Assembly: GCA_019749855.1 (NCBI GenBank)
Contig: JAIEPI010000115.1
Location: 1 to 44,689 of the forward strand
Direction: 5' to 3'
DNA length: 44,689 bases
Source of the DNA: Rickettsiales bacterium
GTDB lineage: Bacteria > Pseudomonadota > Alphaproteobacteria > Rickettsiales > UBA998
Shown here piece after piece: positions 21,185-42,551 of the stretch. The number at the start of each line of letters is the position of its first letter. The stretch's first letter is position 1. The translations under genes were made by a program, and so were the position numbers. Below the pieces are notes generated by a model. That model did not search any database. It was not told where the DNA came from and was given only the letters and a program-made list of their open reading frames with translations.

Positions 21185-22459
21185 TCACTTTTTCATGTTT
21201 TCTCGACGTTCCTCCAAGTTCACTACCACGTCATCTTTTTTCTGCAAAATGTCGTTTATCTTCGTACCCACTGCATCAGAAATTTGCTTCCTATGCGAAT
21301 CGACAAGGTGAGAATAACGCTTCGTGGTTTGCGGTGTCAAATGCCCTAAGAGCTGACCGATTTCTTCCAGCGTTAAGCCGGCCATAATAGCGAACGATGC
21401 AAACGCATGGCGCAGATCATGCTTCCGCAGGTTTGCCAGACCAGCTCGTTTCAGGATACGATGCCACATCTCGTTTGGTGGCGAATGATGCCTGCCGAGC
21501 TTTTCTTGCACCCCGACGAAGTAGCCTGGGAACAAATACGGATTGCCTACTACTCGCTCCAGCTTCTCAATTTCGGCCATCGCCAACGGTGAAAGGTTGA
21601 TTTTCTTTTTCCCCGTTTTGGAATCTGGAAGGTCTAAGGTATTTTCCTCATAGTTGATGTATTCCCATTTTGCGGTCAGCAACTCGCCTTGGCGCGCGCC
21701 AGTGTAAATCAACATACGGAAGAAAATCATCATGCTGCGTTCTTCGGTCTTATCCTCCTCGCACTGGTTGATGGTTTCAATCAGCTTGCGAAGTTCGCTT
21801 TCATTCAGATAGCGGTCGCGCTTATTCTCCTTGTAGCGTTTGATGCCAAGGCACGGATTGCTATTAGGCTCACGGATACCCCAATCCTCGCAAACACTCA
21901 TCATGTGCGAAAGGCAGGCAAGCGCACGGTTGGCGGTTATAGGTGTTTTATGCAACTTGCCATGCCACTCCTGAACATCTTTGCGCATAATATCTTCCAT
22001 CGCATGATTTCTGAAATGCGGCATAATCAGCGTTCTTAGCACCTCTTTTTTGCCTTTAACGGTGGAAGGCTTATTGTGGTGAGTGATATATTCATTCACG
22101 TAGCGTTCCTTGAAATCCTTGAGCAAAGTTTTGCCACGCTCAATTTCTCGCTTGTCGGCAGGATCATCACCCAATGCAATTTTGGCGTAATACTCTTTTG
22201 CCATTACCTTTGCTTGCTCGGGTGTAAGCGCACCATGCTTGCCAATCTTAATGCGTTTTTTGGGCGCATCACGACCGCCAGCTCCTTGCCGATAATCCAG
22301 CACGTAGATTTTAGAGCCGCTTGGCTCAATCTTAACTGAGAATCCTGGTATGTCAGAATCGTAAATATGATAGCGCCTATCCAGAATTGCGGCATTATCA
22401 ACAATGGATTTGGTTAGCTTCTGCTTCTTCGGTTGGTTGGTTGTGGTAGTGTTTTCCAT
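21185..22459 (-). CDS. int: P4-type tyrosine integrase with N-terminal arm-binding (DUF4102-like) domain
   Basis: N-terminal RYHIYDSDIPGFSVKIEPSGSKIYVLDYR and C-terminal HDLRHAFASFAIMAGLTLEEIGQLLGHLTPQTTKRYSHL. Confidence 0.9.
   Translation of the reverse strand: MENTTTTNQPKKQKLTKSIVDNAAILDRRYHIYDSDIPGFSVKIEPSGSKIYVLDYRQGAGGRDAPKKRIKIGKHGALTPEQAKVMAKEYYAKIALGDDPADKREIERGKTLLKDFKERYVNEYITHHNKPSTVKGKKEVLRTLIMPHFRNHAMEDIMRKDVQEWHGKLHKTPITANRALACLSHMMSVCEDWGIREPNSNPCLGIKRYKENKRDRYLNESELRKLIETINQCEEDKTEERSMMIFFRMLIYTGARQGELLTAKWEYINYEENTLDLPDSKTGKKKINLSPLAMAEIEKLERVVGNPYLFPGYFVGVQEKLGRHHSPPNEMWHRILKRAGLANLRKHDLRHAFASFAIMAGLTLEEIGQLLGHLTPQTTKRYSHLVDSHRKQISDAVGTKINDILQKKDDVVVNLEERRENMKK
22439..22450 (-). 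promoter_or_regulatory. 12-mer box ACTACCACAACC (inside integrase codons 4-7)
   Basis: Exact copy. It begins 6 nt after the ATG. Confidence 0.8.
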
Positions 22460-22477
22460 TTTGTGCCCCCTATGTTC

Positions 22478-22654
22478 CTATAATTCCTTTCGATTGATGT
22501 AATCTCGGTTCAGTTTGCCAAGGCTGTCCGTATGGTCGCGCAGGCGGATTTCTTGGTCGATGACCACTGCCGCCAACGTGCCTTCGTGCTGCTCCTTGAG
22601 AGCGCGTAACTCCTTCGTCGAACTCTCAAGGATTTTCTTCGTTAAATCGGTCAT
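22478..22654 (-). CDS. small coiled-coil protein (58 aa), not in the ORF track
   Basis: Hand-translated as MTDLTKKILESSTKELRALKEQHEGTLAAVVIDQEIRLRDHTDSLGKLNRDYINRKEL. The ATG overlaps the ATPase stop (ATGA), and the ORF ends 18 nt before the integrase ATG. Confidence 0.4.
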   Translation of the reverse strand: MTDLTKKILESSTKELRALKEQHEGTLAAVVIDQEIRLRDHTDSLGKLNRDYINRKEL

Positions 22655-24324: not shown

Positions 24325-24326
24325 AG

Positions 24327-27232: not shown

Positions 27233-27244
27233 GGTTGTGGTAGC
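27233..27244 (-). promoter_or_regulatory. 12-mer box variant GCTACCACAACC
   Basis: 11/12 match, 23 nt upstream of the ATG at 27209. Confidence 0.75.
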
Positions 27245-27261: not shown

Positions 27262-27278
27262 GTAGCTTTGTTAGCTAC
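27262..27278. promoter_or_regulatory. operator candidate GTAGCT-N5-AGCTAC overlapping the leftward promoter
   Basis: Perfect inverted repeat gtagctttgttagctac between the repressor gene and the leftward operon. Related half-degenerate copies lie at 28415-28431 and 28443-28459. Confidence 0.55.
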
Positions 27279-28470: not shown

Positions 28471-28923
28471 ATGCGCACTACCACAACCAACCACATCCCT
28501 AAAAACGTCACCCGTCTTGAAAAAGAGGTTTATGCAAGCCTGAAACGGCGAGCACGCTTCGTTGGACTTACCATCGACGAACTATGCCGAAGAGCAAAAA
28601 TCGCCCCTTCGACATTTTCCCGCTGGGTAAACGGTCATCACAGCGGGCTAATTTTCACCATTGGTCAAATGGATGAAATCCTCACCAAGCTCGAAGCCGA
28701 GAAGTTTCATACGCTTGAAAAACGCATTCACGCCTGTGAACTGACAATCTCTGGCGCGTGCAGTGAGGTGGATATCCCCGTCCTCGACTATATCCGCTGG
28801 ATTCGCAAAGAGCTTTCCCCCGATTACGGAAAGCTGGCCGAGCTGGAGCGTTTCTTGTCAGAGCTTGAGGAAGCATCTGAGGCAGATCAACCTTCTGAAC
28901 CTGAAAAAATATGCGGGAGGTAG
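28471..28923 (+). CDS. hypothetical early protein (possible HTH, Cro/CII position)
   Basis: AAGGA RBS. LTIDELCRRAKIAPSTFSRWVNG is HTH-like. Codons 3-6 are encoded by the 12-mer box. Confidence 0.5.
   Translation: MRTTTTNHIPKNVTRLEKEVYASLKRRARFVGLTIDELCRRAKIAPSTFSRWVNGHHSGLIFTIGQMDEILTKLEAEKFHTLEKRIHACELTISGACSEVDIPVLDYIRWIRKELSPDYGKLAELERFLSELEEASEADQPSEPEKICGR
28477..28488 (+). promoter_or_regulatory. 12-mer box ACTACCACAACC (plus strand, codons 3-6 of the 28471 gene)
   Basis: Exact copy, and the only plus-strand one. It is in sense with its gene. Confidence 0.8.
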
Positions 28924-29277: not shown

Positions 29278-30417
29278 ATGCGAACCTACGGCAAGGTTAA
29301 AATAGCCTTTTGGGAAGACGAAAAAATCAGAGGATTGCAAGATGCGCCAAAACTACTGGCGCTATATTGCTTAACTGGTGAGCATAGCAATGCCATTGGC
29401 TGCTTCCGCTTGCCCATTGGCTACATTGAAACGGATCTGCGCTGGGACAAAGACAAAGCCCAATCAGCACTGACAGAGCTCATCGAAGCGGGATTCATTA
29501 TTTACGACGATGAAACCAACTATCTGCTCATGCCGCGCTACCTTGAGCATAACCCCATCGAAAATTCCCGCGTCGGCAAGATGTGCGTCCAGCTCATCAA
29601 TAATACCATGCGCTCACATAAAATATTCCCCGCGCTATGGCGAGCGCTTCAACATCAGAAAAATCGCTTTTCCATCAAAGATGATAACTTTTGGAATCCA
29701 GAATGGGACGTGCTCTATAAAAAACTATGCGTCGGCAATTATACCGTATCAGCAAAAGACAGCGGCAAGCAGCATACCCTATCGGATACCGTATCCGATA
29801 CAGTATCAGATACCCTATCGCATACCGTATCAGATACCGTATATTCAAAATCAGAGGTCACATCTAAAAATGGCGGAAATCCTCAACAATATACCGTATC
29901 CGATACCCTATCCGATACGGTAGGCGGCAGTGTGCAGGACTTTGCTCCCCCTGAACCTGAACCCCAACCAAAACCGAAACCAGAAAATAGAGATGATGAG
30001 GTCACGCGCCCGCGCACGACCCCTGTAGAAATCATCAGGGCTTTTGACGAAGCAATCGTTGAAGTGTTTGGCGAACAGCTTGCGCGACCTTGGCCGCATG
30101 GCGAAGACGCAATGATTGCCGCACAATTCATCGCGGCCGGAGCTGATCGTGAGCTGTGCCGGCAGGTTTTTCTCAAGCAGCTGCATTCCCATCACCGCAA
30201 AGGCAAGCACCCCATTGGCAGCTTGGCTTATTTCCGCACGGCCATTCCCGACGCGGTGAAAGACCGAACATTCTACCAACAAAACCCAATAACGGAGGTC
30301 AATCATGACGGAACCAAACCTGATGCAAGCCGACAATATGCGCCCCGCGCGCGCAGCGGTCATGACGCTTTCACTGAAGCCTTGGTTGAAGTCGTACACG
30401 AGCGCGAACGAGATTGA
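29278..30417 (+). CDS. replication-initiator-like protein with internal iterons
   Basis: GGAGGGGG RBS. The position after the immunity region, plus tandem 12-bp repeats inside the ORF followed by a Pro/Glu-rich linker, is analogous to lambda O. The function is inferred from organisation only. Confidence 0.45.
   Translation: MRTYGKVKIAFWEDEKIRGLQDAPKLLALYCLTGEHSNAIGCFRLPIGYIETDLRWDKDKAQSALTELIEAGFIIYDDETNYLLMPRYLEHNPIENSRVGKMCVQLINNTMRSHKIFPALWRALQHQKNRFSIKDDNFWNPEWDVLYKKLCVGNYTVSAKDSGKQHTLSDTVSDTVSDTLSHTVSDTVYSKSEVTSKNGGNPQQYTVSDTLSDTVGGSVQDFAPPEPEPQPKPKPENRDDEVTRPRTTPVEIIRAFDEAIVEVFGEQLARPWPHGEDAMIAAQFIAAGADRELCRQVFLKQLHSHHRKGKHPIGSLAYFRTAIPDAVKDRTFYQQNPITEVNHDGTKPDASRQYAPRARSGHDAFTEALVEVVHERERD
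29774..29920. repeat. 12-bp iterons ATACC(G/C)TATC(C/A)G, 6 tandem plus about 2.5 tandem copies
   Basis: Units start at 29774, 29786, 29798, 29810, 29822 and 29834, and again at 29891, 29903 and 29915. They are translated as (S/H)DT(V/L) repeats. Confidence 0.7.
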
Positions 30418-31153
30418 TTGGCTTTGCAAGCATCCGCTCACCGCTACTGGCGCCATAGACCATCGCCGTGCTGAAGGTTACCAGAGCCGACAAATCCGAC
30501 CTGTGCCAGTCATCGCCAGAAATAGCGAACGCTACATTGAGCTGATTGATGCGGTTGAGCACGTCAGGCTTTTAGCCGTACCCGCAACGCCTGCAGAAGC
30601 TGGCTTTGAACTCAAGCGGCTTTCGGTCTGGTGTCCGATGGGCCATCGTGATTCCCGCGATTTCAAAATTATGATTCACGATGCCTTGACCGACCTCGCG
30701 GAGTTTCCACCCGACTTATTGCAAAAAGCCTGCGCCATTTACCGCAATGACCCAGACCCGCGCTGCGATTTCTTCCCGCGTCCTGGGAGGCTGAAAGCTC
30801 TGGTGGCGGATGACTTGCGCGAGCGTAAGCAACTGCTTTTCCGACTTGAACGCCTGCTGGCGGTTGCCAATGAGCCGCCAAAATTACCCCCGCCGATTAC
30901 CTTGGTTGAGCTGGAGCAGCAGGCTCTTAACTCGCTCGAAGTCGAAGCAATGATGGCGCAGATCAGCGGCAGAACCTACACGCCACTTTCACCTGAGGAA
31001 TTCCAAGCCGAGCATTTGCGACGCACCGAAAAGAAAATTCAGGAAGCGGTCAACGAGCAACATCTGAGCCCTGACATGGCGGAGCGGATGCTGCAAGCCC
31101 TGCGTGAAATTACTAACCACCAAACGGAAAAAGCCCATGAAAAAACCGCATGA
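30305..31153 (+). CDS. hypothetical protein (replication-module position)
   Basis: 282-aa ORF overlapping the end of the preceding gene in another frame. No recognisable motif. Confidence 0.45.
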   Translation: MTEPNLMQADNMRPARAAVMTLSLKPWLKSYTSANEIDWLCKHPLTATGAIDHRRAEGYQSRQIRPVPVIARNSERYIELIDAVEHVRLLAVPATPAEAGFELKRLSVWCPMGHRDSRDFKIMIHDALTDLAEFPPDLLQKACAIYRNDPDPRCDFFPRPGRLKALVADDLRERKQLLFRLERLLAVANEPPKLPPPITLVELEQQALNSLEVEAMMAQISGRTYTPLSPEEFQAEHLRRTEKKIQEAVNEQHLSPDMAERMLQALREITNHQTEKAHEKTA

Positions 31154-33731: not shown

Positions 33732-33779
33732 ATTTTTCCTCTCCTTGTTTTTATTATTCGATTATTTGCATAGTTGCCA

Positions 33780-35313: not shown

Positions 35314-35439
35314 TCGCACCTAATGATTGAAAGCCTTGATAATCCTAGCTTTGGAAGAAAATTTGCCCGCGCTTTCATCATAAATGAATCTCTAAAAAAA
35401 AGAGGTCAGATAGCATTTACACCATCTGACCTCCCAAAT

Positions 35440-36465
35440 TTACGCTGCTTCAAGCACTTCTTCGGTAGCAACGGCTTCTTCGGTCGCATCATCAGCCACG
35501 CTCAACTCATCAAAGACTTTCTTCTGCGCTACAGGCTCAAGCAATTTCTTTTGCGCCATTGCCAAAACCTTGCCCATTGCACCCAGCTTATCGGCAATCG
35601 TGCTTGCACGGATACGGTCGATCTTCTTCACAATGTCCATTTCCCCATCCTTATTGAAAAAGCGGTTTAGGGTGAGCGCCATCGTGTCGATATGCTGCTC
35701 AAGACTTTTAAGAGCCCGCACTTCTTCTTCGGACAGCTTCACATCAGGAAACAATTCAGGCTGGTTGCCTGCATCGGCAAAAGTTTGAGCAACGGCTGCC
35801 AATTCGCTGCTGTCAACTTTACCGCTGCGGATCATGCGCCAGAATGGGTCTTGATATTCAGGAGCAACCTTTGAAAGGTAAAATGCCTGGGTGGGTGTCA
35901 ATATCCCTTGCTCCAAACAGATTTGATATTCAGGTTTCAAGTTCAACAGCGTCAGGCGGTCATGCACACGGAACGGCTGCAAGATGCCAACTGTTTCTGC
36001 TAACTGCTCTGGCGTTAAGTCAAAATCATCCATCGCCTTACGATATGCCCGCGCTTCTTCCAGAGGCGAAATATCAACACGCTGCAAATTCTCGATAATC
36101 ATCTGCGCGGTCAACGAGGCATCGGATAGTTGCTTGATGATGACTTGGACATTTTCCAGCTCAAGCAGTTTGCAAGCACGATAACGGCGTTCACCAGCAA
36201 CAATCATGTATTTGCCAGTGCCATCAGGTCTTACGACAATCGGGCTAATCAGACCTTGCACCTTAATCGACGCAGCAAGTTGGCGCAGTTCGGTTTCATC
36301 GAAATGCTTACGGGCTTGCTCATCGTTGGCATAAATCTGATTGAGAGGAAGCTGCTGCATCACATCGTTCGGCACGGCTTGGTGCAGACGAGTGACTTTC
36401 GCAGGCTTGGTTTTCTTAGCTTGTTTTGGTGACGTAGCTTTTTTCTTGGCGGTTGCTTTAGGCAT
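35440..36465 (-). CDS. ParB/Spo0J-family protein with canonical GERRxRA motif
   Basis: The ATG at 36465 follows AAGGAGAA. Lys-rich N-terminus, then LISPIVVRPDGTGKYMIVAGERRYRACKLL. The longer ORF-track start would translate the leader box. Confidence 0.8.
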   Translation of the reverse strand: MPKATAKKKATSPKQAKKTKPAKVTRLHQAVPNDVMQQLPLNQIYANDEQARKHFDETELRQLAASIKVQGLISPIVVRPDGTGKYMIVAGERRYRACKLLELENVQVIIKQLSDASLTAQMIIENLQRVDISPLEEARAYRKAMDDFDLTPEQLAETVGILQPFRVHDRLTLLNLKPEYQICLEQGILTPTQAFYLSKVAPEYQDPFWRMIRSGKVDSSELAAVAQTFADAGNQPELFPDVKLSEEEVRALKSLEQHIDTMALTLNRFFNKDGEMDIVKKIDRIRASTIADKLGAMGKVLAMAQKKLLEPVAQKKVFDELSVADDATEEAVATEEVLEAA

Positions 36466-36486
36466 AGGATTCTCCTTGGTTTTGGT

Positions 36487-36498
36487 GGTTGTGGTAGT
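36487..36498 (-). promoter_or_regulatory. 12-mer box ACTACCACAACC
   Basis: Exact copy, 21 nt upstream of the ATG at 36465. Confidence 0.8.
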
Positions 36499-36518
36499 GG
36501 GCTTTAGTGCCAATCCAA

Positions 36519-36551
36519 ATCCTATCCAAATGACCTTTACCGTCCACAAAA
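36519..36551 (-). promoter_or_regulatory. promoter TGGACG-16-TAGGAT with conserved upstream box TTTTGTGGACGGT
   Basis: The same architecture and spacing recur at 42572-42604 and 39642-39674. Confidence 0.5.
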
Positions 36552-36591
36552 TTCGACCTGCGAAACTAAAATAATTCGCATTAAATCAACA

Positions 36592-36633
36592 GCTTAAATA
36601 GAAAATGCGCTTTCCAGAAACCAGAAAGCGCAT
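36592..36633 (-). terminator. rho-independent terminator downstream of the DUF488 gene
   Basis: 10-bp stem atgcgctttc/gaaagcgcat. On the minus strand it is followed by TTTCTATTT. Confidence 0.55.
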
Positions 36634-36641
36634 TATACTAT

Positions 36642-36710
36642 GCGGCGACCTATAGAGGATGACACAGGTGCCCCCTTGTCAGCTGGGTGCAAGTCCCGGT
36701 AGCCGCTCCA
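36642..36710 (+). other. tRNA-like acceptor/T-arm minihelix ending in CCA (not a canonical tRNA)
   Basis: GCGGCGA pairs with TAGCCGC (6 of 7). T arm CTGGG-TGCAAGT-CCCGG, then T-CCA. Only 34 nt lie between the acceptor 5' strand and the T arm, forming one bulged hairpin. Confidence 0.3.
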
Positions 36711-37124
36711 TTATTCTTCAAACAAAGATGCTTGTTTTGATTTTGCCTTCGGCTTTTTAGCCACAACATACTCTGGCACTTTCACGCCGAGATGTTCTTC
36801 AAACCATTCGGCCACCATGCGGCGGTGACACCATTCGTCTGGTTGGATTGGGTCTTTCTCCCAACATAACAGCACAGGCTCATGACCTTTTGCCAGTTCG
36901 TGCAGGTGGTCATAAACTTTTTGCGGATTGAGCGGTTTAAGAATTTCGCGAAAATAGCGCTCACGAAATTTGGCTTCACAGCATTTATATTCTTCGCTGT
37001 TGAACCATGTGCCTGGGTTTAATGCTCGGTAAAGTCTGTAGCCTTCGCCAAGGTTGCGGGGGAATCCGCGAGAGATGATTATCCGACCGGAACCAGTATA
37101 GTTCCAGAAATTGCTGGTTTGCAT
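36711..37124 (-). CDS. DUF488-family protein
   Basis: ...HEPVLLCWEKDPIQPDEWCHRRMVAEWF matches the LLC.E.....CHR hallmark of DUF488 as I recall it. Confidence 0.6.
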   Translation of the reverse strand: MQTSNFWNYTGSGRIIISRGFPRNLGEGYRLYRALNPGTWFNSEEYKCCEAKFRERYFREILKPLNPQKVYDHLHELAKGHEPVLLCWEKDPIQPDEWCHRRMVAEWFEEHLGVKVPEYVVAKKPKAKSKQASLFEE

Positions 37125-37142
37125 ATTCGTCCTTTTTTTGGT

Positions 37143-37154
37143 GGTTGTGGTAGT
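37143..37154 (-). promoter_or_regulatory. 12-mer box ACTACCACAACC
   Basis: Exact copy, 18 nt upstream of the ATG at 37124. An extended -10 TGCTATAAT lies 6 nt upstream of the box. Confidence 0.8.
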
Positions 37155-37209
37155 GGCAAAATTATAGCAGGAACAAATTACAAATCCAGCAATTTCAGCA
37201 CCTTAACAA

Positions 37210-37632
37210 TCATTCACCACGGACTCTTTTCAGCAAAACATCGTTGTCATCTTGACTGCTGCGATACTCATAAAGTGGTTGGTCTGGATGCTCTTGTGCG
37301 ATGATGAGCTGGTCATAAGACACATACCTCAGCTTCTCATTTCCGCCAGAAGTCACCGAGAAAACTTCACCCGCTTCCAAGTGTTCGCACAGCTCTTTTG
37401 CAAACACATTCAGATCGGCATCAACCAGTTCATCTTCTTCCTCATCATGGATGCGAGGGTGAGCAAAAGGGTACATCTCATAACTGCCAAAGCCGACACT
37501 GCGCTCTGTTTCGTTTTCTACCCATACCTCAACATCATCACCGAAGTGGTATTTCGCAAACCATTCTTTGAATTTCTCAACGTCTTTAACCTTGAAAAAG
37601 TTTGAGCGAAGCGCTCCATACATATCTGCCAT
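37210..37632 (-). CDS. hypothetical acidic protein
   Basis: 140-aa ORF with an acidic run (HDEEEDELVDADL). No motif recognised. Confidence 0.5.
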   Translation of the reverse strand: MADMYGALRSNFFKVKDVEKFKEWFAKYHFGDDVEVWVENETERSVGFGSYEMYPFAHPRIHDEEEDELVDADLNVFAKELCEHLEAGEVFSVTSGGNEKLRYVSYDQLIIAQEHPDQPLYEYRSSQDDNDVLLKRVRGE

Positions 37633-37640
37633 AACTCCTC

Positions 37641-38057
37641 CTATGCCGCTTCGTGGTTAGCAAGGGTATGACCTTGAGCTTTCAAATTCCGCAGCCATTG
37701 GCTGAGAAACGCACTTTGCCTGTCTAGCTCTTTGGTACGGACGCGGTCATTCTCATCAATGCACTCGCGATAACCAAGGAAATCTTGCATCGCCATTGGC
37801 AAAGCCATCTTCTTTTCGAGGTCAAGCCAGATACGCATATCTGGGTCTGGCACTGAATCGCCGTTCTGCTTGTAGTAATGCGCCAGCGCAATATCCAAAC
37901 GGTTCGGGCGACGGTCGAGCGCGTCATAGTGTAAATCCATGAAGCCGCCTGCGGTGAGTTTGCCTGCATCGCCGGGTTTCATGTTCTCAATGTTTGGTAT
38001 GAGCGCAACGATGCGTTCATAGTTGGCTTTGAATTGTCTAATAGTCGTCATGTTCAT
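37641..38057 (-). CDS. hypothetical protein, DUF1249/YqiB-like pattern (tentative)
   Basis: N-terminal F.ANYERIVALIP and C-terminal FLSQWLRNL resemble the YqiB-type layout. It is a paralog of the next gene. Confidence 0.4.
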   Translation of the reverse strand: MNMTTIRQFKANYERIVALIPNIENMKPGDAGKLTAGGFMDLHYDALDRRPNRLDIALAHYYKQNGDSVPDPDMRIWLDLEKKMALPMAMQDFLGYRECIDENDRVRTKELDRQSAFLSQWLRNLKAQGHTLANHEAA

Positions 38058-38075
38058 GGGTAGCTCCTGTTTTGA

Positions 38076-38465
38076 TTAGTGGATTGTTGCGTTGTCATTG
38101 CCGGCAAGGATGCCAAGCCAATTCGTAAGTCGATTATTCATCACGTTCAGAATCTGCTCATTCACGCCCTTCTTTGGCTCGCGTGTGTGCGTCGTGCCTC
38201 GGCATTTGAACCAGATAGATTCTGGAATTGCTTTGCGCTCATGCAGATCGAGCTTCACGGTCATTTTGTGGTCGGGCAGCAATTCTTCGCCGTGCCGATA
38301 ATGAAAGCCGATTTCCAGACGCATCACGGATTGCCCGCGCTGCTTTACTTTGATGATGCCAGTCATCGGGCTGGTTGGAATCGTGACACAATCCTGCGCC
38401 GCACTTTCTGCAACCGCGGGGAATACACTTAGTATTCGTTCGTAATGTTCTTTGTAAATGCACAT
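38076..38465 (-). CDS. hypothetical protein, paralog of 37641-38057 (tentative DUF1249-like)
   Basis: N-terminal YKEHYERILSVFP and C-terminal RLTNWLGIL. It is preceded by the box leader and a TTTACA-16-TAGAAT promoter. Confidence 0.4.
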   Translation of the reverse strand: MCIYKEHYERILSVFPAVAESAAQDCVTIPTSPMTGIIKVKQRGQSVMRLEIGFHYRHGEELLPDHKMTVKLDLHERKAIPESIWFKCRGTTHTREPKKGVNEQILNVMNNRLTNWLGILAGNDNATIH

Positions 38466-38487
38466 AGTTTTTGCCTCTTGGTTTGGT

Positions 38488-38499
38488 GGTTGTGGTAGT
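38488..38499 (-). promoter_or_regulatory. 12-mer box ACTACCACAACC
   Basis: Exact copy, 22 nt upstream of the ATG at 38465. Confidence 0.8.
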
Positions 38500-38506
38500 G
38501 AAAATT

Positions 38507-38534
38507 ATTCTAGCTTTTTTACCTTTTATGTAAA
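38507..38534 (-). promoter_or_regulatory. sigma70-type promoter TTTACA-16-TAGAAT
   Basis: The -10 lies 7 nt upstream of the first A of the 12-mer box. Confidence 0.55.
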
Positions 38535-38580
38535 GGAAAATCGGAATAAATAACTATAAATATCAATAGCTTATACACCA

Positions 38581-39168
38581 TTAATCCGCCTTTCTCTTGG
38601 CGTTTTTTAACCGCTCTAAAACTGCTTCGTAATTGCGGAGGTGGGCAAAGCTCATCCAGTTGTTGCTTCCGCCTGTGTAATCGCGGCGGTGCTTGCATGA
38701 GCGGTAGAGAATTTGAAGGTCACTACCGCAACTTCCTTGCGCTAACTGCACATACAAATCATCGGTATGCAGAGTGACTTCACCGCTGACCGCGATGCCT
38801 GCCTTGTTGTTTCGCAGATCGAAACTGCCCTTGGCATAACCCAAATCGCAGGCAATTTGTTTTAGCAGTGCTTTGCCGCGTCTGTGGAATTGCTCCTTTG
38901 CTTCTGCATCGTATGCGACTGGGCGAGAGGCAACTTCAAGGAAGCTGCGCGCTAGTTTGTTTGCGCTTAGGCGGTCAACCTGACTATCAATCCATTTTTT
39001 GCAATCTGCCTCTGTATGCGCTTCCCACACACGCTGGCGGATATTGCTCATGTGATAGACGCTGAAATTCTGCGCCTCAAATTGCACGATGCGGTAGCCG
39101 CGATATTCCTCCTGAGGGAATTCAAGCACCGTCATATCTTGGTAGTGAGTTATCTGTCCTGGTTTCAT
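38581..39168 (-). CDS. hypothetical protein
   Basis: I prefer the ATG at 39168 (MKPGQITHY), preceded by AGGAGAA. No motif recognised. Confidence 0.5.
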   Translation of the reverse strand: MKPGQITHYQDMTVLEFPQEEYRGYRIVQFEAQNFSVYHMSNIRQRVWEAHTEADCKKWIDSQVDRLSANKLARSFLEVASRPVAYDAEAKEQFHRRGKALLKQIACDLGYAKGSFDLRNNKAGIAVSGEVTLHTDDLYVQLAQGSCGSDLQILYRSCKHRRDYTGGSNNWMSFAHLRNYEAVLERLKNAKRKAD

Positions 39169-39264
39169 AATCTGTTCTCCTGTTAATGTTTCAAATTCAG
39201 GCCGCAGTTTTCCACCCGCTGCTTTGGCGGCGGTCACAACGACTTATTGGTTGGGTGGGTTAGG

Positions 39265-39597
39265 CTATTTCCAGTCTGGCAAAGACACTTCTATGGTCTT
39301 GCCTTCTGGCACTGGCACTTTGCTAATCAGGTAGCCGAGGCGATTTACCCATCGGCATCCACTGGCTAGAAATGGCGGCTCGCCATCGTTATTATCCATC
39401 AGCGTCCAAATGCAGCGTGGGTCTTGCCTGACCACAAACTCATATTCTGCCCCGTAAGTTTCAAACAGGCAGCCGCGCTGATCGGCATCGTTTTCTGAAA
39501 TATAAACCCAGCCTGCACTGGGATTGAGATGATTATGCACGAGCGGAAACTGCTCGTTAAATTCATCCTCATTTAGCTGTATTAATTCCTCTGTCAT
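39265..39597 (-). CDS. hypothetical small acidic protein
   Basis: The ATG at 39597 follows AAAGGAGAG. The ORF-track extension would read through the leader. Confidence 0.5.
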   Translation of the reverse strand: MTEELIQLNEDEFNEQFPLVHNHLNPSAGWVYISENDADQRGCLFETYGAEYEFVVRQDPRCIWTLMDNNDGEPPFLASGCRWVNRLGYLISKVPVPEGKTIEVSLPDWK

Positions 39598-39623
39598 CGT
39601 TGCTCTCCTTTGGTTTGGTTGGT

Positions 39624-39635
39624 GGTTGTGGTAGT
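39624..39635 (-). promoter_or_regulatory. 12-mer box ACTACCACAACC
   Basis: Exact copy, 26 nt upstream of the ATG at 39597. Confidence 0.8.
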
Positions 39636-39641
39636 AAAAAC

Positions 39642-39674
39642 ATTCTAACTTTATGATAGTGACCGTCCACAAAA
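39642..39674 (-). promoter_or_regulatory. promoter TGGACG-16-TAGAAT with TTTTGTGGACGGT box
   Basis: The -10 lies 6 nt upstream of the 12-mer box. Confidence 0.55.
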
Positions 39675-39713
39675 ATCGGCAGAAAATCACTATAATTCAG
39701 CATATTATTTCCC

Positions 39714-40505
39714 TTAAAATTCAAACATAAACTGGGCGGTTTGCTGGGGTGGCGGCATAACAATTTGCGGTTCTGGCTCTGGTCGTGGCGGCAGTTCAAA
39801 AGCAGGCAACAGATTACCTGATACACCATGTCGCTGCATGAGCTTCCATTGCGGTGTTGAGCGTTTATCCCAATGCTCCATGCGCAACGTGTCACCATGA
39901 ATAACCACGCCTGGAAGTTCCAGCGCAGCCAACTGAAAATACGCCATGTTGAAACAGGTGCGGTTTATATCTATGGCTTGAAACAGCATCGTGCAGCGCG
40001 GATCATGCCCTTCATCGCGCAGGGCGTTTGCCGCCTCAATAACCATCACACCAGCACCGCAAGCGGGCTCTTGGAGGGTCACATAGCCTTTTGCCTTAAT
40101 AAGCTCTCCTAAGCCGCTCATTTGCATTTTTGCCATCATGCGGCTGATATTGCTGGGCGAGAAAAACTCACCATTGTGTTTATTGCTTATTTCCAGCTGC
40201 ATATACTGCTCGCCAAGGAAATCTTCCTGCGTACTGCGCAGCGCAATCACCGAGATGCCGTAAAGGGCAACAATCTGGTCAATTTCCTCTCGGTTATATT
40301 TCTTAATGGTCGAAAGATAGAGCTCTTCGATACGCTCATAATCTTCGTCTTTCTCCAGCAAGCCCAAATGATAGGGTTGCTGGTGGATTGTGCAGGCAGC
40401 AATTTCGATAAAATCACGAAATGCGTCATGCCAATTACGGCGATAACACAATTTATCAAAGGACGTGCGAAAGGCTTTGCCGCTGTCGGCAATGGATTTA
40501 TTCAT
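39714..40505 (-). CDS. N6-DNA-methylase-like SAM-binding protein lacking a visible catalytic (D/N)PP(F/Y/W) motif
   Basis: GEFFSPSNISRMMAKM (motif X-like), EPACGAGVMVIEA (motif I) and ...IHGDTL are present. The ORF then ends in a Pro-rich tail without NPPF/Y. Confidence 0.55.
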   Translation of the reverse strand: MNKSIADSGKAFRTSFDKLCYRRNWHDAFRDFIEIAACTIHQQPYHLGLLEKDEDYERIEELYLSTIKKYNREEIDQIVALYGISVIALRSTQEDFLGEQYMQLEISNKHNGEFFSPSNISRMMAKMQMSGLGELIKAKGYVTLQEPACGAGVMVIEAANALRDEGHDPRCTMLFQAIDINRTCFNMAYFQLAALELPGVVIHGDTLRMEHWDKRSTPQWKLMQRHGVSGNLLPAFELPPRPEPEPQIVMPPPQQTAQFMFEF

Positions 40506-40573
40506 AAAAACTCCGGTGGTTATTGCGCTTCTAAAAAATCAAGTCATAATGCGCCCACGGCCTCCTTATGGGA

Positions 40574-40585
40574 GGTTGTGGTAGT
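40574..40585 (-). promoter_or_regulatory. 12-mer box ACTACCACAACC
   Basis: Exact copy, 68 nt upstream of the ATG at 40505. It is followed by the small hairpin CCTCC-CATAA-GGAGG. Confidence 0.8.
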
Positions 40586-40614
40586 GCGCTTTGGGGTGGT
40601 ACTCTGGCGCCGGT

Positions 40615-40640
40615 GACGGAGGGTGTTAAAACCCTCCGTC
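40615..40640. terminator. 10-bp hairpin just after the large parB-like gene
   Basis: gacggagggt-gttaaa-accctccgtc. There is no T-run on the minus strand, so it may be a terminator, attenuator or processing site. Confidence 0.35.
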
Positions 40641-40649
40641 ATTTAATGA

Positions 40650-42521
40650 TTACGCCATGCCTTTCGGCAGCCACGTTTTCAGCTTGGCTTGTTGCTCCGG
40701 CGTAAACTGCGGCTGGTCAGGACTGGCAAATGCCCCATGCAGCACGGCAACCACATCACCTTTCGGCTTCTTGCCTTGTTCCTTTGCCCATGCTTCACCA
40801 AAGATATGCTCGCCAATTTCCAGCACATCCTTTTTGGTCACACGGTCAAAGAAGTTAGTCTGGCTCGGCCGCCAATGCTTCGCAACATCAACACCAAGAC
40901 GCTTAAACACCGCTTCGGCAACTGGTGAAGGCTTATCCTCGATTGACAACTGCGGCATGAGCGAGCGGGAAACACAGGCTGCAAATAATCGCTGCTTCAC
41001 CTCTAAGGACAACTCGCAGAAGGCTTTGAATTTCTCGCCTTCGTCCTTGATGTTCATCCATGCAAGCGGCAAGCTGGCAAAGAGTTTTTCTTCTTCACTG
41101 TGCAATGCCGTGCCTGTTTCATCCTCAGACACCATGAGATGCGGGAAGTGATAGTTTTCTGGCTTCACCCGCAGCCAGTCCTTGCCGTAGTAGTAGCTAT
41201 GAGCGGAATTGAGGCTGCGCAGGCACATCATGTAAACCGTTGCATCAAACGCCACTTCAAAGTTCTGCGCCATATACGGACGCTCGACTTGCAGGCGGTA
41301 GTTTTTCAGGCGGTCAACAAGTGCCTGGCTATAAGGCATCGTATGCTTGGCAGCATTGCTGATATTTGCCCCTTCGGTTTTTTCAGCAGACTTAGCGGCA
41401 GCTTTTTTATCATCGGGATGAATCATTCCCTCCAAGATTTCTGCCGTACCATTATGCTGAATGGTGATGACACAGCCCGACGAAGCACGCTCTTCTTCGG
41501 TAAAGCCTGAATATTCTGCCAATTTCGCTTCAAGCTCTTCCTGCTCCTTACGGAGTGCGTCAGCTGCATCGTCGTCATAATCCTCAGCAGCATCCATTTC
41601 TTCCATTTTGCTTTCCAGCACTTCTTGCTGTTTCAGCAATTTCTTTGGAATCTCGCCAATCTGATGCGGATAGAAGCGGCCATACTGCTGTTTATCTTCC
41701 CAGCCAAAATCAAGACGGACTTCAACCCATTTCCACTTTTCTTTCAGCGGCTCGGCTATCTTATTGAGCTTTTCCTCTGCTAATTCATGGAGCAGCTCCA
41801 GATCTTCGAGATAGAAAGAATCACGTTCACCGAATAAATCGGTGCGGAATGCGCCACCCGCTAATTTATAGGTATCGAGTCCGACAAATTTTGCCAGCTT
41901 GTCATCACCGCGCACCATCGTTTCTGTGAGTGCGCCGCGTATGGTGTTAGGCTGTCTGATTTGCCAGCTGTCTTTGAATTGCTTGAACACATCTTCTTGC
42001 TTGGCGTGGTCATCTGTAATGGTAAACGCCATCAGGCTTTCCAGCGACAACTCCTCATTGCGGTATGCCTTCATTAGTTTGGGCGACACACGACCAAGTT
42101 TTAAGCGCTGCTCTACGGTGATTTCTGCGACACCGAACCGAGCGGCAATATCGGCAATGGACATTTCATTCGACAGCTTTGCCCATGCTTCAAACTGATC
42201 GGCTGGGTGCATCTGTGAGCGCACAACGTTTTCGGCAAGGCTGATTTCCTCAGCCTTATCTTCTTCGACAATTTGGCAGTTCACTGCATGGGTTTTCGGC
42301 AGCTTTCCTTGCTTCTGCAATAAGTGCAGCGCAGTCAAGCGGCGACCACCAGCAACGACTTCAAATTTATTTTTCTCTTTCGTTTTGATGACGATGAGAT
42401 TTTCCAGCAAGCCGTGCGCGGCAATGCTGGAAGTGAGTTCATCCAAACCCTTCTTTGTGTCAGTTTTCCTGACGTTGAAGTGCTTGGAAACACTAAGGTT
42501 ACTTAACTGAATTGTTTGCAT
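40650..42521 (-). CDS. large ParB-N-domain protein (623 aa) of plasmid/ICE type
   Basis: The ATG at 42521 follows AAGGAGAA. LSVSKHFNVRK...LTSSIAAHGLLENLIVIK...FEVVAGGRRLTALHLL, followed by a long C-terminal extension with an acidic coiled region. Confidence 0.75.
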   Translation of the reverse strand: MQTIQLSNLSVSKHFNVRKTDTKKGLDELTSSIAAHGLLENLIVIKTKEKNKFEVVAGGRRLTALHLLQKQGKLPKTHAVNCQIVEEDKAEEISLAENVVRSQMHPADQFEAWAKLSNEMSIADIAARFGVAEITVEQRLKLGRVSPKLMKAYRNEELSLESLMAFTITDDHAKQEDVFKQFKDSWQIRQPNTIRGALTETMVRGDDKLAKFVGLDTYKLAGGAFRTDLFGERDSFYLEDLELLHELAEEKLNKIAEPLKEKWKWVEVRLDFGWEDKQQYGRFYPHQIGEIPKKLLKQQEVLESKMEEMDAAEDYDDDAADALRKEQEELEAKLAEYSGFTEEERASSGCVITIQHNGTAEILEGMIHPDDKKAAAKSAEKTEGANISNAAKHTMPYSQALVDRLKNYRLQVERPYMAQNFEVAFDATVYMMCLRSLNSAHSYYYGKDWLRVKPENYHFPHLMVSEDETGTALHSEEEKLFASLPLAWMNIKDEGEKFKAFCELSLEVKQRLFAACVSRSLMPQLSIEDKPSPVAEAVFKRLGVDVAKHWRPSQTNFFDRVTKKDVLEIGEHIFGEAWAKEQGKKPKGDVVAVLHGAFASPDQPQFTPEQQAKLKTWLPKGMA

Positions 42522-42539
42522 TTTGTTCTCCTTGGTTTT

Positions 42540-42551
42540 GGTTGTGGTAGT
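42540..42551 (-). promoter_or_regulatory. 12-mer box ACTACCACAACC
   Basis: Exact copy, 18 nt upstream of the ATG at 42521. Confidence 0.8.

What the first reader, a model, noticed from the sequence alone, without database searches (positions are those of the whole stretch)
22439..42551. Element-wide sense-strand 12-mer ACTACCACAACC marking the 5' end of nine transcription units
ACTACCACAACC occurs eight times perfectly and once as GCTACCACAACC. The minus-strand copies are at 22439, 27233, 36487, 37143, 38488, 39624, 40574 and 42540; the plus-strand copy is at 28477. A given 12-mer is expected about 0.005 times in 2 x 44.7 kb (4^12 is about 1.7e7), so this is not chance.

Every copy is in the sense orientation of the adjacent gene, including the single plus-strand copy. 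In seven cases the box lies 18-68 nt upstream of the start codon. It is then followed by a G-poor C/A tract and the SD (ACTACCACAACCACCAAAACCAAGGAG..ATG). In two cases (the integrase and the 28471 gene) it starts 3-6 nt after the ATG and is translated as TTTT.

At 37143, 38488 and 39624 a good -10 (TATAAT/TAGAAT) sits 6-7 nt upstream, so the box would be the first nucleotides of the mRNA. A degenerate version (ACTAACCACCAAAC) precedes the ATG at 31137. I did not see the box in the backbone, in island 1 or upstream of the GmrSD/Fic cargo.

The box is non-palindromic, strand-specific and position-flexible relative to the ATG. That argues for an RNA-level or transcription-coupled signal rather than a classical dimeric operator. 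Candidates are a binding site for an element-encoded RNA-binding regulator or antiterminator, a translational enhancer, or an sRNA/rRNA pairing site. A KorB-style global DNA operator or a module-boundary recombination sequence remain alternatives. I know of no described motif matching it.
Basis: seen in the sequence. Interest (0 to 1): 0.78.

Follow-up and report, generated by a model that had tools for sequence, protein, structure and literature searches.

The report
Prophage early-gene leader box
A 12-base sequence (ACTACCACAACC) sits, always in the sense direction, about 20 bases ahead of the start codon of the first gene of nearly every early operon of an integrated phage of an uncultured alphaproteobacterium. 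It is letter-perfect in relatives whose proteins are only about 60% identical, so it most likely tags the early messenger RNAs for a shared control of their translation that has not been identified.

Summary
There are 8 exact copies and 1 one-mismatch copy, all sense-oriented and all between 22439 and 42551, against 0.06 expected by chance.

The "element" is a temperate tailed phage. Terminase, portal, capsid and tail genes follow the window end. The box occurs only in the roughly 21 kb of early, non-structural genes. None occurs in about 30 kb of late genes, at the repressor gene, or at the GmrSD/Fic cargo.

Three phage lineages keep the 11-nt core CTACCACAACC unchanged at 6-9 sites each, although their proteins are only 55-70% identical. 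An equally related sister clade has none.

The box tracks the translation start, not the promoter. It ends 18-26 nt before the ATG at 18 leader sites. The distance from the -10 element is 6-7, 9, 14, 20 or 38 nt, and at 6 or more intercistronic or intragenic sites there is no promoter at all.

Several candidate partners are excluded or unsupported:
- the CI-type operator, which is a separate and variable palindrome;
- a ParB/KorB site, since one box-bearing lineage lacks the large ParB;
- pairing with E. coli rRNA, or with any phage-encoded antisense.

My best reading (about 0.45) is an RNA-level start-associated leader element, a counterpart of the mycobacteriophage SAS. The main rival (about 0.27) is an L5-type asymmetric "stoperator". 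The partner is unidentified.

The parts
22439..22450 (-). Box copy inside the integrase ORF (codons 4-7, TTTT), starting 6 nt after the ATG
   Evidence: The same nucleotides are kept at the integrase start in lineage B (L134 20878, L135 20887) although the flanking codons differ.
27233..27244 (-). Box copy (G at position 1) in the leader of the first gene of the leftward early (PL-like) operon, 23 nt before the ATG
28477..28488 (+). The only plus-strand copy, inside the first gene of the rightward early operon (150-aa HTH protein), starting 3 nt after the ATG
36487..36498 (-). Box copy in the ParB leader, 21 nt before the ATG and 20 nt after the -10 TAGGAT
37143..37154 (-). Box copy in the DUF488 leader, 18 nt before the ATG and 6 nt after TGcTATAAT
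38488..38499 (-). Box copy in the leader of the p129-DUF6908-p140 operon, 22 nt before the ATG and 7 nt after TTTACA-16-TAGAAT
39624..39635 (-). Box copy in the leader of the p111-p195 operon, 26 nt before the ATG and 6 nt after TGGACG-16-TAGAAT
40574..40585 (-). Box copy in a conserved structured module between the large ParB gene and the methylase gene, 68 nt before the methylase ATG with no promoter upstream
42540..42551 (-). Box copy in the leader of the large ParB-like gene, 18 nt before the ATG and 20 nt after the -10 TAGGAT
40555..40640 (-). Module made of hairpin 1 (40615-40640), the conserved flank CAGAGTACCACCCCAAAGCGC (40586-40606), the box, and hairpin 2 (40555-40581), which pairs box bases CCAC..CC with GGAGG..GTGG
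   Evidence: Present in all three box-bearing lineages and absent from box-less relatives. Folding z-scores are -4.6 to -8.1. Hairpin 2 is CCUCC/GGAGG in the window and CCUUCUG/CAGAAGG in L141. P(box unpaired) is 0.004 here, against 0.23-0.91 at the other copies.
38507..38534 (-). Sigma-70-type promoter of the p129 operon
39642..39669 (-). Sigma-70-type promoter of the p111 operon. Its upstream part (CGATTTTTGTGGACGGTCA) is shared with the ParB, large ParB and p129 promoters
42551..42566 (-). Perfect 16-bp palindrome TTGGCACTATTGCCAA inserted between the -10 and the box. An imperfect copy lies at 36498-36513 before ParB
   Evidence: The L131 version TAGGCACTAAAGCCTA keeps the symmetry.
27262..27278 (-). 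17-bp palindrome GTAGCTAACAAAGCTAC, the likely CI-type operator at PL. Imperfect copies lie at 28415-28431 and 28443-28459 (PR). It is distinct from the box
   Evidence: The half-site differs in each relative.
30271..30286 (+). Degenerate box (TTCTACCAACAAAACC) at the junction of the replication-initiator gene and the 282-aa gene. L134, L135 and L136 have the exact box here, overlapping the codons for YYHN(H/Q)
31112..31125 (+). Degenerate box ACTAACCACCAAAC, 11 nt before the ATG at 31137

Best explanation
The box is a start-associated leader element of the phage's early messenger RNAs. It is an 11-12-nt, G-free, unpaired stretch (A/G)CUACCACAACC placed in the ribosome-docking region of the first cistron of each early, non-structural transcription unit. 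It normally lies 5-14 nt upstream of the SD (18-26 nt before the AUG). Twice it lies just inside the ORF, at 3 or 6 nt after the ATG.

I infer that a sequence-specific partner reads it in the transcript. The partner could be a protein, a G/U-rich RNA, or the ribosome itself. This would set translation, and possibly stability, of all early units together.

Where the unit has its own promoter, the promoter is usually placed so that the transcript begins at box position 1, giving a minimal leader of box, C/A tract and SD. The structured copy at 40574, where a conserved hairpin sequesters the box, would be a regulated or competing version.

Shown: the anatomy, the orientation, the restriction to early genes, the letter-perfect conservation across diverged phages, and the coupling to the start codon rather than to the promoter.

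Inferred: that the transcript rather than the DNA is read, the sign of the effect, and the identity of the partner.
For: 1. Every copy is sense-oriented: 9 of 9 in the window, and about 30 non-redundant copies in three lineages. Two independent opposite-strand copies sit at different genes (window 28477 on the plus strand, L134 12928 on the minus strand).
2. The box-to-ATG distance is 18-26 nt (mean 21, sd 2.9) and the box-to-SD distance 5-14 nt at 18 leader sites. The -10-to-box distance is 6-7 nt (9 sites), 9, 14, 20 (3 sites) or 38 nt, or there is no promoter (6 or more sites). Where 14 nt were inserted in the ParB and large ParB leaders, they went between the promoter and the box and left the box-to-SD spacing intact.
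3. Some copies have no promoter at all: ParB in L141, L094 and L134, where a stop codon comes 2 nt before the box, and the p379/p282 junction in L134/L135.
4. Only first or uncoupled cistrons of early units carry the box. There is none in about 30 kb of late genes, or at the repressor, GmrSD, Fic or Dam/GNAT genes.
5. The box is predicted single-stranded in its leaders (P 0.23-0.91, against 0.005-0.13 for other 12-nt windows). It is sequestered by a hairpin in one module that is conserved in three lineages.
6. Synonymous positions of the TTTT codons in the integrase are unchanged between lineages whose SMC-like ATPase, encoded in the same leftward operon, is 57% identical. The selection is therefore on nucleotides.
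7. The DNA-binding proteins of the early region do not co-vary with the box.
8. There is a close precedent: the SAS of Cluster K mycobacteriophages are 13 bp, asymmetric, in one orientation, next to start codons, confined to the non-structural half of the genome, absent from the host, and missing in one subcluster (PMC3203893, PMC12699233).
Against: - No partner was found. There is no antisense in the phage and no significant complementarity to E. coli rRNA. The only ORF confined to box-bearing phages (p111) is acidic, has homologues in unrelated mobile elements without any box, and has no recognisable fold.
- Nine copies begin 6-7 nt after a -10 element. That is also the classic position of an operator over the transcription start.
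- Intergenic spaces are short, so closeness to the ATG is partly forced.
- The C/A tract is a general feature of this phage's ribosome-binding regions and adds nothing specific to the box.
- Letter-perfect invariance over 11 nt is stricter than usual for protein-RNA or sRNA-target sites.
- The 40574 copy lies 68-130 nt from the next ATG.
- There are no expression data.
Confidence: 0.45

Rival explanations
1. The box is a DNA-level asymmetric operator or "stoperator". A monomeric DNA-binding protein, from the phage or the host, binds the double-stranded box in one orientation. It blocks initiation where the box overlaps the transcription start, and blocks elongation at intercistronic and intragenic copies. 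This would silence all early units, as the L5/Cluster A mycobacteriophage repressor does.
For: - L5-type sites are 13 bp, asymmetric, and number more than 20 per genome. They lie at promoters and in short intergenic spaces, and their orientation is tied to the direction of transcription (PMC9283540).
- Here, nine copies in three lineages start 6-7 nt after a -10 element.
- Genes expected to be on in a lysogen (repressor, GmrSD, Fic) lack the box.
- The ParB-cluster promoters look strong and carry no CI-type operator, so something else must silence them if they are silenced.
- The 305-aa repressor has two HTH regions and groups by clade with box presence.
Against: - The CI-type half-sites differ between the window (GTAGCT) and L134 (GTTACT) while the box is identical.
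- The HTH150 recognition helices are the same in box-bearing and box-less phages.
- No DNA-binding protein of the early region co-varies with the box.
- Box-less sister phages have no replacement multi-copy site.
- The box keeps its spacing to the SD, not to the promoter.
- None occurs in about 30 kb of late genes, whereas stoperators are distributed across the L5 genome (PMC9283540).
Confidence: 0.27
2. The box is a transcription-initiation element. It could be an initial transcribed sequence that fixes the start site and promoter escape. Or it could be a recognition element for RNA polymerase redirected by a phage factor (a "middle promoter"), with transcripts starting in or just after the box.
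For: - The spacing after the -10 is 6-7 nt at nine copies, and position 1 is A or G.
- Phage-specific promoters are the class of site that is typically letter-perfect, asymmetric, sense-oriented, and sometimes embedded in upstream genes (own knowledge of T7-type and T4 late/middle promoters).
- This reading would explain copies that lack a sigma-70 promoter.
Against: - No RNA polymerase, sigma-like or NusG-like gene was found by Pfam among the 26 ORFs of the early region. In the late region, the families shown for the first 10 kb include none, and the remaining ORFs were read but not scanned.
- The integrase and HTH150 copies lie after the ATG, so transcripts starting there would lack the start codon.
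- The spacing to the -10 is 9-38 nt at six copies.
Confidence: 0.1
3. The box is a module-boundary or linker sequence. The identical short sequence at the head of each cassette serves as microhomology for cassette exchange by the phage's own RecT/exonuclease, and has no role in expression.
For: - Gene content between consecutive boxes differs among lineages: p195 occurs only in A and A', different ORFs lie between boxes in B, and the ParB promoter is inserted upstream of the box in A only.
- The phage encodes RecT and a PD-(D/E)XK nuclease.
Against: - Twelve base pairs is very short for RecT-type recombination (own knowledge).
- Similarity breakpoints are not confined to boxes. DUF6908 is 49% identical next to p129 at 84% within one operon, with no box between them.
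- This does not explain the sense orientation relative to transcription on both strands, the fixed spacing to the SD, or the in-ORF copies kept at synonymous sites.
Confidence: 0.05

Closest known systems
Start-Associated Sequences (SAS; 5'-GGGATAGGAGCCC) of Cluster K mycobacteriophages (PMC3203893; still functionally untested in PMC12699233)
   Same: Both are short, asymmetric, near-invariant sequences present about 10-19 times per genome in essentially one orientation. Both lie next to start codons and are restricted to the non-structural half of a temperate siphovirus genome. Both are absent from the host and are conserved across subgroups in front of genes of different families. Both are missing in one subgroup (K8 there, the box-less clade here). 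In both cases the partner is unknown.
   Different: SAS contains the SD (AGGAG) and ends 3-7 bp before the start codon. The box contains no G, lies 5-14 nt upstream of a separate SD, and twice lies inside the ORF. About half of SAS have an upstream 17-bp inverted-repeat extension (ESAS). Here only two leaders carry a palindrome. The sequences are unrelated and the host phylum differs (Actinobacteria versus Alphaproteobacteria).
Stoperators and operators of the L5/Cluster A mycobacteriophage repressor (PMC9283540)
   Same: Both are 12-13 bp asymmetric sites in many copies, found at a promoter and in short intergenic spaces. In both, orientation correlates strictly with the direction of transcription.
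   Different: Stoperators are distributed across the L5 genome and are the binding sites of the immunity repressor. Here the immunity region has its own palindromic operators, the box is absent from about 30 kb of late genes, and no repressor co-varies with it.
Dispersed asymmetric 17-bp C1 operators of phage P1 (own knowledge)
   Same: An asymmetric site scattered over the genome at the heads of many early operons, read by a monomeric repressor.
   Different: P1 operators overlap promoters and are degenerate. No C1-like protein was identified here. The box occurs without promoters.
C/A-rich elements in enterobacterial 5' UTRs that act as translational enhancers and are the targets of the G/U-rich region of GcvB sRNA; also CA-repeat enhancers downstream of start codons (own knowledge: Sharma et al. 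2007; Martin-Farmer and Janssen 1999)
   Same: G-free C/A sequence inside or upstream of the ribosome-binding site, effective both upstream and downstream of the AUG. The same element serves many mRNAs.
   Different: Those elements are loosely defined by composition, whereas the box is an exact 11-mer. No G/U-rich partner RNA was found in the phage. GcvB is not known in Alphaproteobacteria.
T4 RegA translational repressor sites (own knowledge)
   Same: One phage factor acting on the ribosome-binding regions of many early mRNAs.
   Different: RegA sites are AU-rich, degenerate, and overlap the AUG. No RegA-like protein was found here.
ops element (GGCGGTAGNNTG) read by RfaH in the non-template strand (own knowledge)
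   Same: A 12-nt, sense-strand-specific element in leaders at variable distance from the promoter.
   Different: ops occurs once per long operon and needs a NusG paralogue. No NusG or KOW protein was found among the ORFs scanned. The sequences are unrelated.

Membership tests
Start-associated sequences (phage SAS-type elements) | Short asymmetric sequence repeated many times in one orientation relative to genes | tested here: met
   9 of 9 copies are sense-oriented in the window, and about 30 non-redundant copies in three lineages.
Start-associated sequences (phage SAS-type elements) | Fixed close position relative to the translation start | tested here: met
   The box ends 18-26 nt before the ATG (sd 2.9) at 18 sites, and two copies start 3-6 nt after the ATG. 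Exception: the structured copy at 40574.
Start-associated sequences (phage SAS-type elements) | Restricted to the non-structural part of the genome and absent from the host | tested here: met
   0 copies in about 30 kb of late genes and 0 in 21 kb of host flank. The whole host genome was not available.
Start-associated sequences (phage SAS-type elements) | Contains the Shine-Dalgarno core (as the Cluster K SAS does) | tested here: not met
   The box has no G, and a separate SD follows 5-14 nt downstream. The box is therefore analogous to the Cluster K SAS and is not a member of that family.
L5-type stoperator system | The sites are bound by the prophage immunity repressor and co-vary with it | tested here: not met
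   The immunity region has separate palindromic operators whose half-sites differ between the window and L134, while the box is identical. Binding itself is not testable here.
L5-type stoperator system | Sites distributed through the whole genome, including late operons | tested here: not met
   None in the late region.
L5-type stoperator system | Asymmetric site whose orientation follows transcription, at promoters and in intergenic spaces | tested here: met
ParB/KorB-type operator (parS or OB) | Palindromic site, with presence tied to the cognate ParB/KorB | tested here: not met
   The box is not palindromic. Lineage B (L134/L135) has 8-9 boxes but no large ParB. The small ParB is more similar between the window and box-less phages (67-71%) than between the window and L134 (62%).
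rRNA-complementary translational enhancer (epsilon or downstream-box type) | Significant complementarity to 16S rRNA | tested here: inconclusive
   Against E. coli 16S/23S the longest pairing is 7 and 6 nt. Shuffled boxes reach 7 nt or more in 322 of 500 trials (16S) and 6 nt or more in all 500 (23S). The rRNA of the real host could not be obtained.
sRNA target set with an element-encoded antisense | A complementary (G/U-rich) sequence encoded in the element | tested here: not met
   No run of 9 or more pairs apart from the reverse strands of the boxes themselves, in the window phage, L121 or L134. A 10-nt complement lies in the host flank at 9006-9017, which is near the chance level.
RfaH/ops-type antitermination | An element-encoded or host NusG paralogue, and one site per long operon | tested here: not met
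   No NusG or KOW domain among the 26 early-region ORFs scanned, and none among the families shown for the late genes of L121. Boxes occur before 1-3-gene units.
Known RNA families (Rfam 15) | Match to a curated covariance model | tested here: not met
   No hit at the gathering threshold in the window. No hit at E of 1 or less in 35300-42700.

The most novel reading that the evidence does not exclude
The box is an "address label" on early phage mRNAs that is read independently of the SD. One possibility is base pairing with a variable, host-specific segment of the ribosomal RNA. Another is a dedicated RNA-binding factor. Either way the phage would gain a private channel for translating, or shutting off, all its early genes at once. 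The structured 40574 copy would act as a built-in competitor or sensor. If so, this would be the alphaproteobacterial counterpart of the still unexplained mycobacteriophage SAS, and would point to a general, undescribed layer of phage translational control.
Probability: 0.2. Interest if true: 0.8.

Novelty: new variant of a known kind. Interest (0 to 1): 0.6.

Why it matters
Dispersed, letter-perfect start-associated sequences have been known in mycobacteriophages since 2011, and no function has been demonstrated for them. Finding an independent example makes it likely that such tags are a recurrent solution in temperate phages and not a curiosity of one cluster. This example has a different sequence, lies in a different position relative to the SD, and occurs in a different bacterial phylum.

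This system has three practical advantages for study:
- The box is separate from the SD, so it can be mutated without destroying ribosome binding.
- It has natural box-less sister phages with the same genes.
- It has one copy embedded in a conserved hairpin.

Together these give ready-made controls for deciding whether the RNA or the DNA is read, and for fishing out the partner. The exact 11-mer is also a handy marker for this phage group in metagenomes.

Tried and rejected
1. Searching public collections for the bare 15-mer returned mostly chance or coding hits: TTTT linkers of crAss-like phages and ...HWQPLPQPP C-termini. Only L094 was a relative. Longer box-plus-tract 18-mers hit only this phage group, plus three isolated single matches in unrelated contigs.

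2. p111 (39265-39600) as the partner. It is the only ORF present in all box-bearing loci and absent from all box-less loci. However, its homologues sit in unrelated mobile elements with no box and no repeated leader motif. It is acidic (my count from the translation is about 19 D/E against 8 K/R). The AlphaFold model is confident (pLDDT 86), but it has no PDB fold match and no Pfam or PHROG hit. I dropped it as unlikely.

3. The 305-aa repressor as the partner. Its palindromic half-sites vary between phages that share the box.

4. HTH150 (the Cro-position protein with two HTH motifs) as the partner. Its recognition helices are invariant in box-bearing and box-less phages.

5. ParB proteins as the partner. 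See the membership test.

6. rRNA pairing. Complementarity to E. coli rRNA is at chance level.

7. Phage antisense RNA. None was found.

8. Rfam. Nothing was found.

9. Literature. The 12-mer appears only inside unrelated primers.

10. Translation of the box as an N-terminal TTTT peptide at all sites. The reading frame is not consistent: the p111 leader and the L134 junction read YYHNH.

11. The crAss-like L006 family has GTACCCCAAAGGT directly before the box, next to a tRNA-Val gene. This resembles the flank of the 40574 module, but I judged it a coincidence of a search that selected for the 15-mer.

12. The metagenome scan with a ParB profile was too unspecific. Only 2 of 80 loci were relatives.

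13. Sigma-54, sigma-32 and EcfG-type promoter readings of the 40574 flank and of the TTGGCAC palindrome. The spacings do not fit (by inspection).

Full report
OBSERVATION

Eight are perfect and one (27233) has G at position 1. Shuffled sequence gives 0.06. All nine lie between 22439 and 42551, and all are in the sense orientation of the adjacent gene. The distances to start codons, the two in-ORF copies read as TTTT, the three copies 6-7 nt after a -10 element, and the degenerate copy before the ATG at 31137 are all as described.

WHAT THE ELEMENT IS

Pfam and PHROG scans show a lambda-like layout.
- A tyrosine integrase lies at the left end (21185-22459).
- A leftward operon carries an SMC-like ATPase, RecT, a PD-(D/E)XK nuclease and a zinc-ribbon protein.
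- A 305-aa repressor-like gene (27387-28304) sits next to a divergent rightward operon, which holds a 150-aa HTH protein, a DnaD-like replication initiator and DUF6456.
- Two cargo genes follow (GmrSD, Fic).
- Then comes a leftward cluster of short units: ParB, DUF488, p129-DUF6908-p140, p111-p195, an N6 methylase, and a 623-aa ParB-like protein.

Looking up the last gene of the window (Dam-like/GNAT) in public assemblies gave near-identical contigs. In these the next genes are terminase, portal, Mu-F-like, capsid and tail genes. The element is therefore a temperate tailed phage. Its relatives sit in MAGs labelled Alphaproteobacteria or Rickettsiales. It has no close match in E. coli genomes or in plasmids.

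DISTRIBUTION WITHIN THE PHAGE

The nine copies fall in the roughly 21 kb of early, non-structural genes. None was found in about 30 kb of late genes read in three steps from near-identical contigs. None occurs in the 21 kb of host flank. The repressor gene, GmrSD, Fic and the Dam/GNAT gene have no box. Nor do the internal genes of operons, most of which overlap or nearly abut the preceding gene.

CONSERVATION

Syntenic relatives fall into two groups.

Box-bearing phages:
- Lineage A: the window, L131, L121-127, L138 and L139.
- Lineage A': L141, L094 and L140.
- Lineage B: L134, L135 and L148.

B proteins are only 37-84% identical to the window's, mostly 55-70%. Even so, L134 has nine copies of the 11-nt core, seven of them the exact 12-mer, and all are sense-oriented. 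The copy at the integrase start has the same four threonine codons although the neighbouring codons differ.

Box-less phages: L132, L133 (the same contig as L143), L142 and L149 have none, and L136 has a single copy. They have the same genes at equal or higher identity (for example the PD-(D/E)XK nuclease is 76-77% identical, against 70% for L134). They have no replacement multi-copy motif. Their leaders at the same positions are C/A-rich or unrelated sequences. Some look like decayed boxes, for example AACAACCAC before p129 in L136.

Among 30 non-redundant copies collected by their exact 11-nt core, position 1 is A 26, G 3 and C 1. Searches allowing two mismatches add only one other variant. 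The background is negligible: 0 exact copies in 878 kb of unrelated ParB loci and 2 in 1.16 Mb of other phages. In IMG/VR, 18-mers of box plus tract hit only this phage group, plus three isolated single matches in unrelated contigs.

The box is therefore under strong purifying selection in some lineages and dispensable in a sister clade. This is what one expects of a site that depends on a lineage-specific partner.

WHAT THE BOX IS TIED TO

I tabulated all non-redundant copies.
- Distance from the box to the start codon: 18-26 nt (mean 21, sd 2.9) at 18 leader sites.
- Distance from the box to the SD: 5-14 nt.
- Distance from the nearest -10-like hexamer to the box: 6-7 nt (nine sites), 9, 14, 20 (three sites) or 38 nt.
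- At six or more sites there is no promoter.

Four cases are informative.

1. In the ParB and large ParB leaders, a 14-nt insertion containing a palindrome lies between the -10 and the box, so the box stays next to the SD.
2. In L141, L094 and L134 the ParB box sits 2 nt after the stop codon of DUF488 with no room for a promoter. In lineage A a terminator and a promoter were inserted upstream of the same box.
3. The PL copy is 23-24 nt from the ATG in both the window and L134, but 9-38 nt and 14 nt from -10 candidates.
4. The two in-ORF copies start 3 and 6 nt after the ATG, which is still inside the region a 30S subunit covers.

The box thus follows the translation-initiation region and not the promoter.

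The promoters themselves fit the alphaproteobacterial housekeeping consensus TTGACGS-N17-GCTANAWC as I recall it for Caulobacter (own knowledge). An example is TGGACGG...GTTAGAAT. Where a unit has its own promoter, the transcript usually begins at box position 1. This agrees with position 1 being a purine and not part of the invariant core.

RNA PROPERTIES

When the transcript is taken to start at the box, the 12 nt are predicted unpaired with probability 0.23-0.91. Other 12-nt windows of the same RNAs give 0.005-0.13. This is partly a consequence of the G-free composition.

The C/A-rich tract between box and SD is not specific to the box. Late genes without a box have the same AACCAA...GGAG leaders, whereas host genes mostly do not.

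The copy at 40574 is different. In all three box-bearing lineages it is embedded in a module made of a strong hairpin, the conserved flank CAGRGWACCACCCC..GCGY, the box, and a second hairpin. The second hairpin pairs box bases CCAC..CC with GGAGG..GTGG in the window and with CAGAAGG.UGUGG in L141. Folding z-scores are -4.6 to -8.1, and the box is predicted to be sequestered (P 0.004). The module lies after different genes in different lineages and is absent from box-less phages. With only three sequence types the covariation is thin.

SEARCH FOR THE PARTNER

- The immunity region has its own 17-bp palindrome at PL (27262-27278) and imperfect copies at PR. The half-site differs in each phage (GTAGCT, GTTACT, GTAATT, GTAACT) while the box is the same in the window and L134. 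The box is therefore not the CI-type operator.
- The recognition helices of the 150-aa HTH protein are identical in box-bearing and box-less phages.
- Lineage B lacks the large ParB, and the small ParB does not co-vary.
- The only ORF confined to box-bearing loci is p111. It is acidic. Its homologues occur in relaxase-bearing elements and other phages that have no box and no repeated leader motif. It has no Pfam, PHROG, PDB-sequence or fold match, despite a confident model.
- No late-region gene distinguishes the two groups in the parts available.
- No sequence able to pair with 9 or more nt of the box exists in the phage, apart from the opposite strands of the boxes.
- E. coli 16S and 23S rRNA pair with at most 7 and 6 nt, as shuffled boxes do. 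The real host's rRNA could not be obtained.
- Rfam and the literature library hold nothing on this sequence.

The partner remains unknown. The apparent co-variation amounts to a single loss event, so it has little power.

INTERPRETATION

I rank the explanations as follows.

1. RNA-level start-associated leader element (0.45). It accounts for the sense orientation on both strands and for the constant spacing to the SD and ATG against a variable or absent promoter. It also accounts for the promoter-less intercistronic copies, the two copies just inside ORFs, the restriction to uncoupled first cistrons of early units, the single-stranded context, and the sequestering hairpin at 40574. Whether it enhances or represses cannot be told. 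C/A-rich elements are known both as enhancers and as sRNA targets, upstream and downstream of the AUG (own knowledge).

2. L5-type asymmetric operator or stoperator (0.27). The anatomy of such sites is very similar (PMC9283540), and nine copies sit where an operator over the transcription start would. However, the immunity operators are separate, no DNA-binding protein co-varies, late operons have none, and the spacing argument favours the ribosome-binding region.

3. Initiation element or phage-specific promoter (0.10). The in-ORF copies and the lack of any polymerase or sigma-like gene argue against it.

4. Recombination linker (0.05).

COMPARISON WITH WHAT IS KNOWN

The nearest described phenomenon is the Start-Associated Sequence of Cluster K mycobacteriophages (PMC3203893).
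- It is 13 bp, asymmetric and in one orientation.
- It lies next to start codons.
- It is confined to the non-structural half of the genome and absent from the host.
- It is conserved in front of unrelated genes.
- It is lacking in one subcluster.
- Its function was still untested in 2025 (PMC12699233).

The box is not a member of that family. The sequence is unrelated, it does not contain the SD, and the host phylum differs. It is the same kind of thing. I therefore rate it a new variant of a known kind, not categorically new, with moderate-to-good interest because the known kind is itself unexplained.

Noticed in passing
window 42551-42566 and 36498-36513 (minus strand): A perfect 16-bp palindrome TTGGCACTATTGCCAA (imperfect before ParB, and TAGGCACTAAAGCCTA in L131) is inserted between the -10 and the box in the leaders of the two ParB-family genes only. 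It could be a ParB autoregulatory site (parS-like) or a 5'-terminal RNA hairpin.
   Followed up: partly
window 40555-40640 (minus strand); L141 7774-8003; L134 4188-4417: A conserved structured module (hairpin, CAGRGWACCACCCC..GCGY, box, hairpin) is found only in box-bearing phages and lies after different genes in different lineages. L134 has a second copy of the CAGGGTACCACCCC flank without a box. It could be a 3'-UTR-derived RNA, an attenuator, or a competitor for the box partner.
   Followed up: partly
window 27262-27278, 28415-28459; L132-L136 immunity regions: The CI-type operator half-sites differ from phage to phage (GTAGCT, GTTACT, GTAATT, GTAACT) around otherwise conserved PL/PR promoters. 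This looks like a neat natural series of immunity specificities. The 305-aa repressor has two HTH regions and an S24-like C-terminal domain, with GPTVHP where LexA-type proteins have G(D/S)SM.
   Followed up: partly
window 9006-9017 (minus strand), within an ORF-free stretch of about 8840-9405: The host flank contains GGTTGTGGTTCC. Together with the preceding T it can pair with 10 nt of the box plus the following A (ACCACAACCA), and it lies in a 560-nt region without ORFs. About 0.3-1.4 such matches are expected by chance. Only one other contig of the same organism was found, so conservation could not be judged.
   Followed up: partly
window 31800-34904: GmrSD (type IV restriction) and a Fic/DOC protein with a weak C-terminal wHTH match (E 0.004, below the Pfam cut-off) are inserted between the replication module and ParB. 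GmrSD is seen in the window and in one near-identical metagenome contig (L122), and Fic in lineages A and A'. These are typical prophage defence cargo with their own box-less leaders.
   Followed up: no
window 35440-44012: The early cluster combines ParB, DUF488 (rhodanese-phosphatase superfamily), DUF6908 and its paralogue p129, an N6 methylase, a 623-aa ParB-like protein, and a Dam-like/GNAT fusion. This looks like a DNA-modification or anti-restriction arsenal, each part with its own strong promoter.
   Followed up: no
window 39265-39600 (minus strand); P0001-P0052: p111 belongs to a family of about 50 clusters of small acidic proteins found in phages and relaxase-bearing elements, next to methylases and DUF932. 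The AlphaFold model is confident, has no PDB neighbour, and has invariant N23, FETY46-49, W65 and NRxGY86-90. It may be an anti-defence protein.
   Followed up: partly
L006, L014, L025, L086, L092, L110, L120 (IMG/VR, crAss-like, low G+C): An unrelated phage family carries GATAGTACCCCAAAGGT-ACTACCACAACC in a non-coding spot, 16 nt from a tRNA-Val gene on the other strand in some contigs. The flank resembles that of the 40574 module. I judged it coincidental but did not test it.
   Followed up: partly
window 30271-30286; L134 12928, L136 12546: At the junction of the replication-initiator gene and the next gene, the box overlaps codons for a conserved peptide (F/Y)Y(Q/H/N)N(Q/H/N)P. A near-box therefore exists there for coding reasons in all relatives, and only some have the exact box. 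This shows how a box could arise from pre-existing sequence.
   Followed up: partly
phage leaders in general (window 21-44.7 kb; L121 late genes): Most genes of this phage, late ones included, have G-poor AACCAA-type tracts directly upstream of the SD, whereas the host genes in the window mostly do not. This appears to be a phage-wide ribosome-binding-site style.
   Followed up: partly
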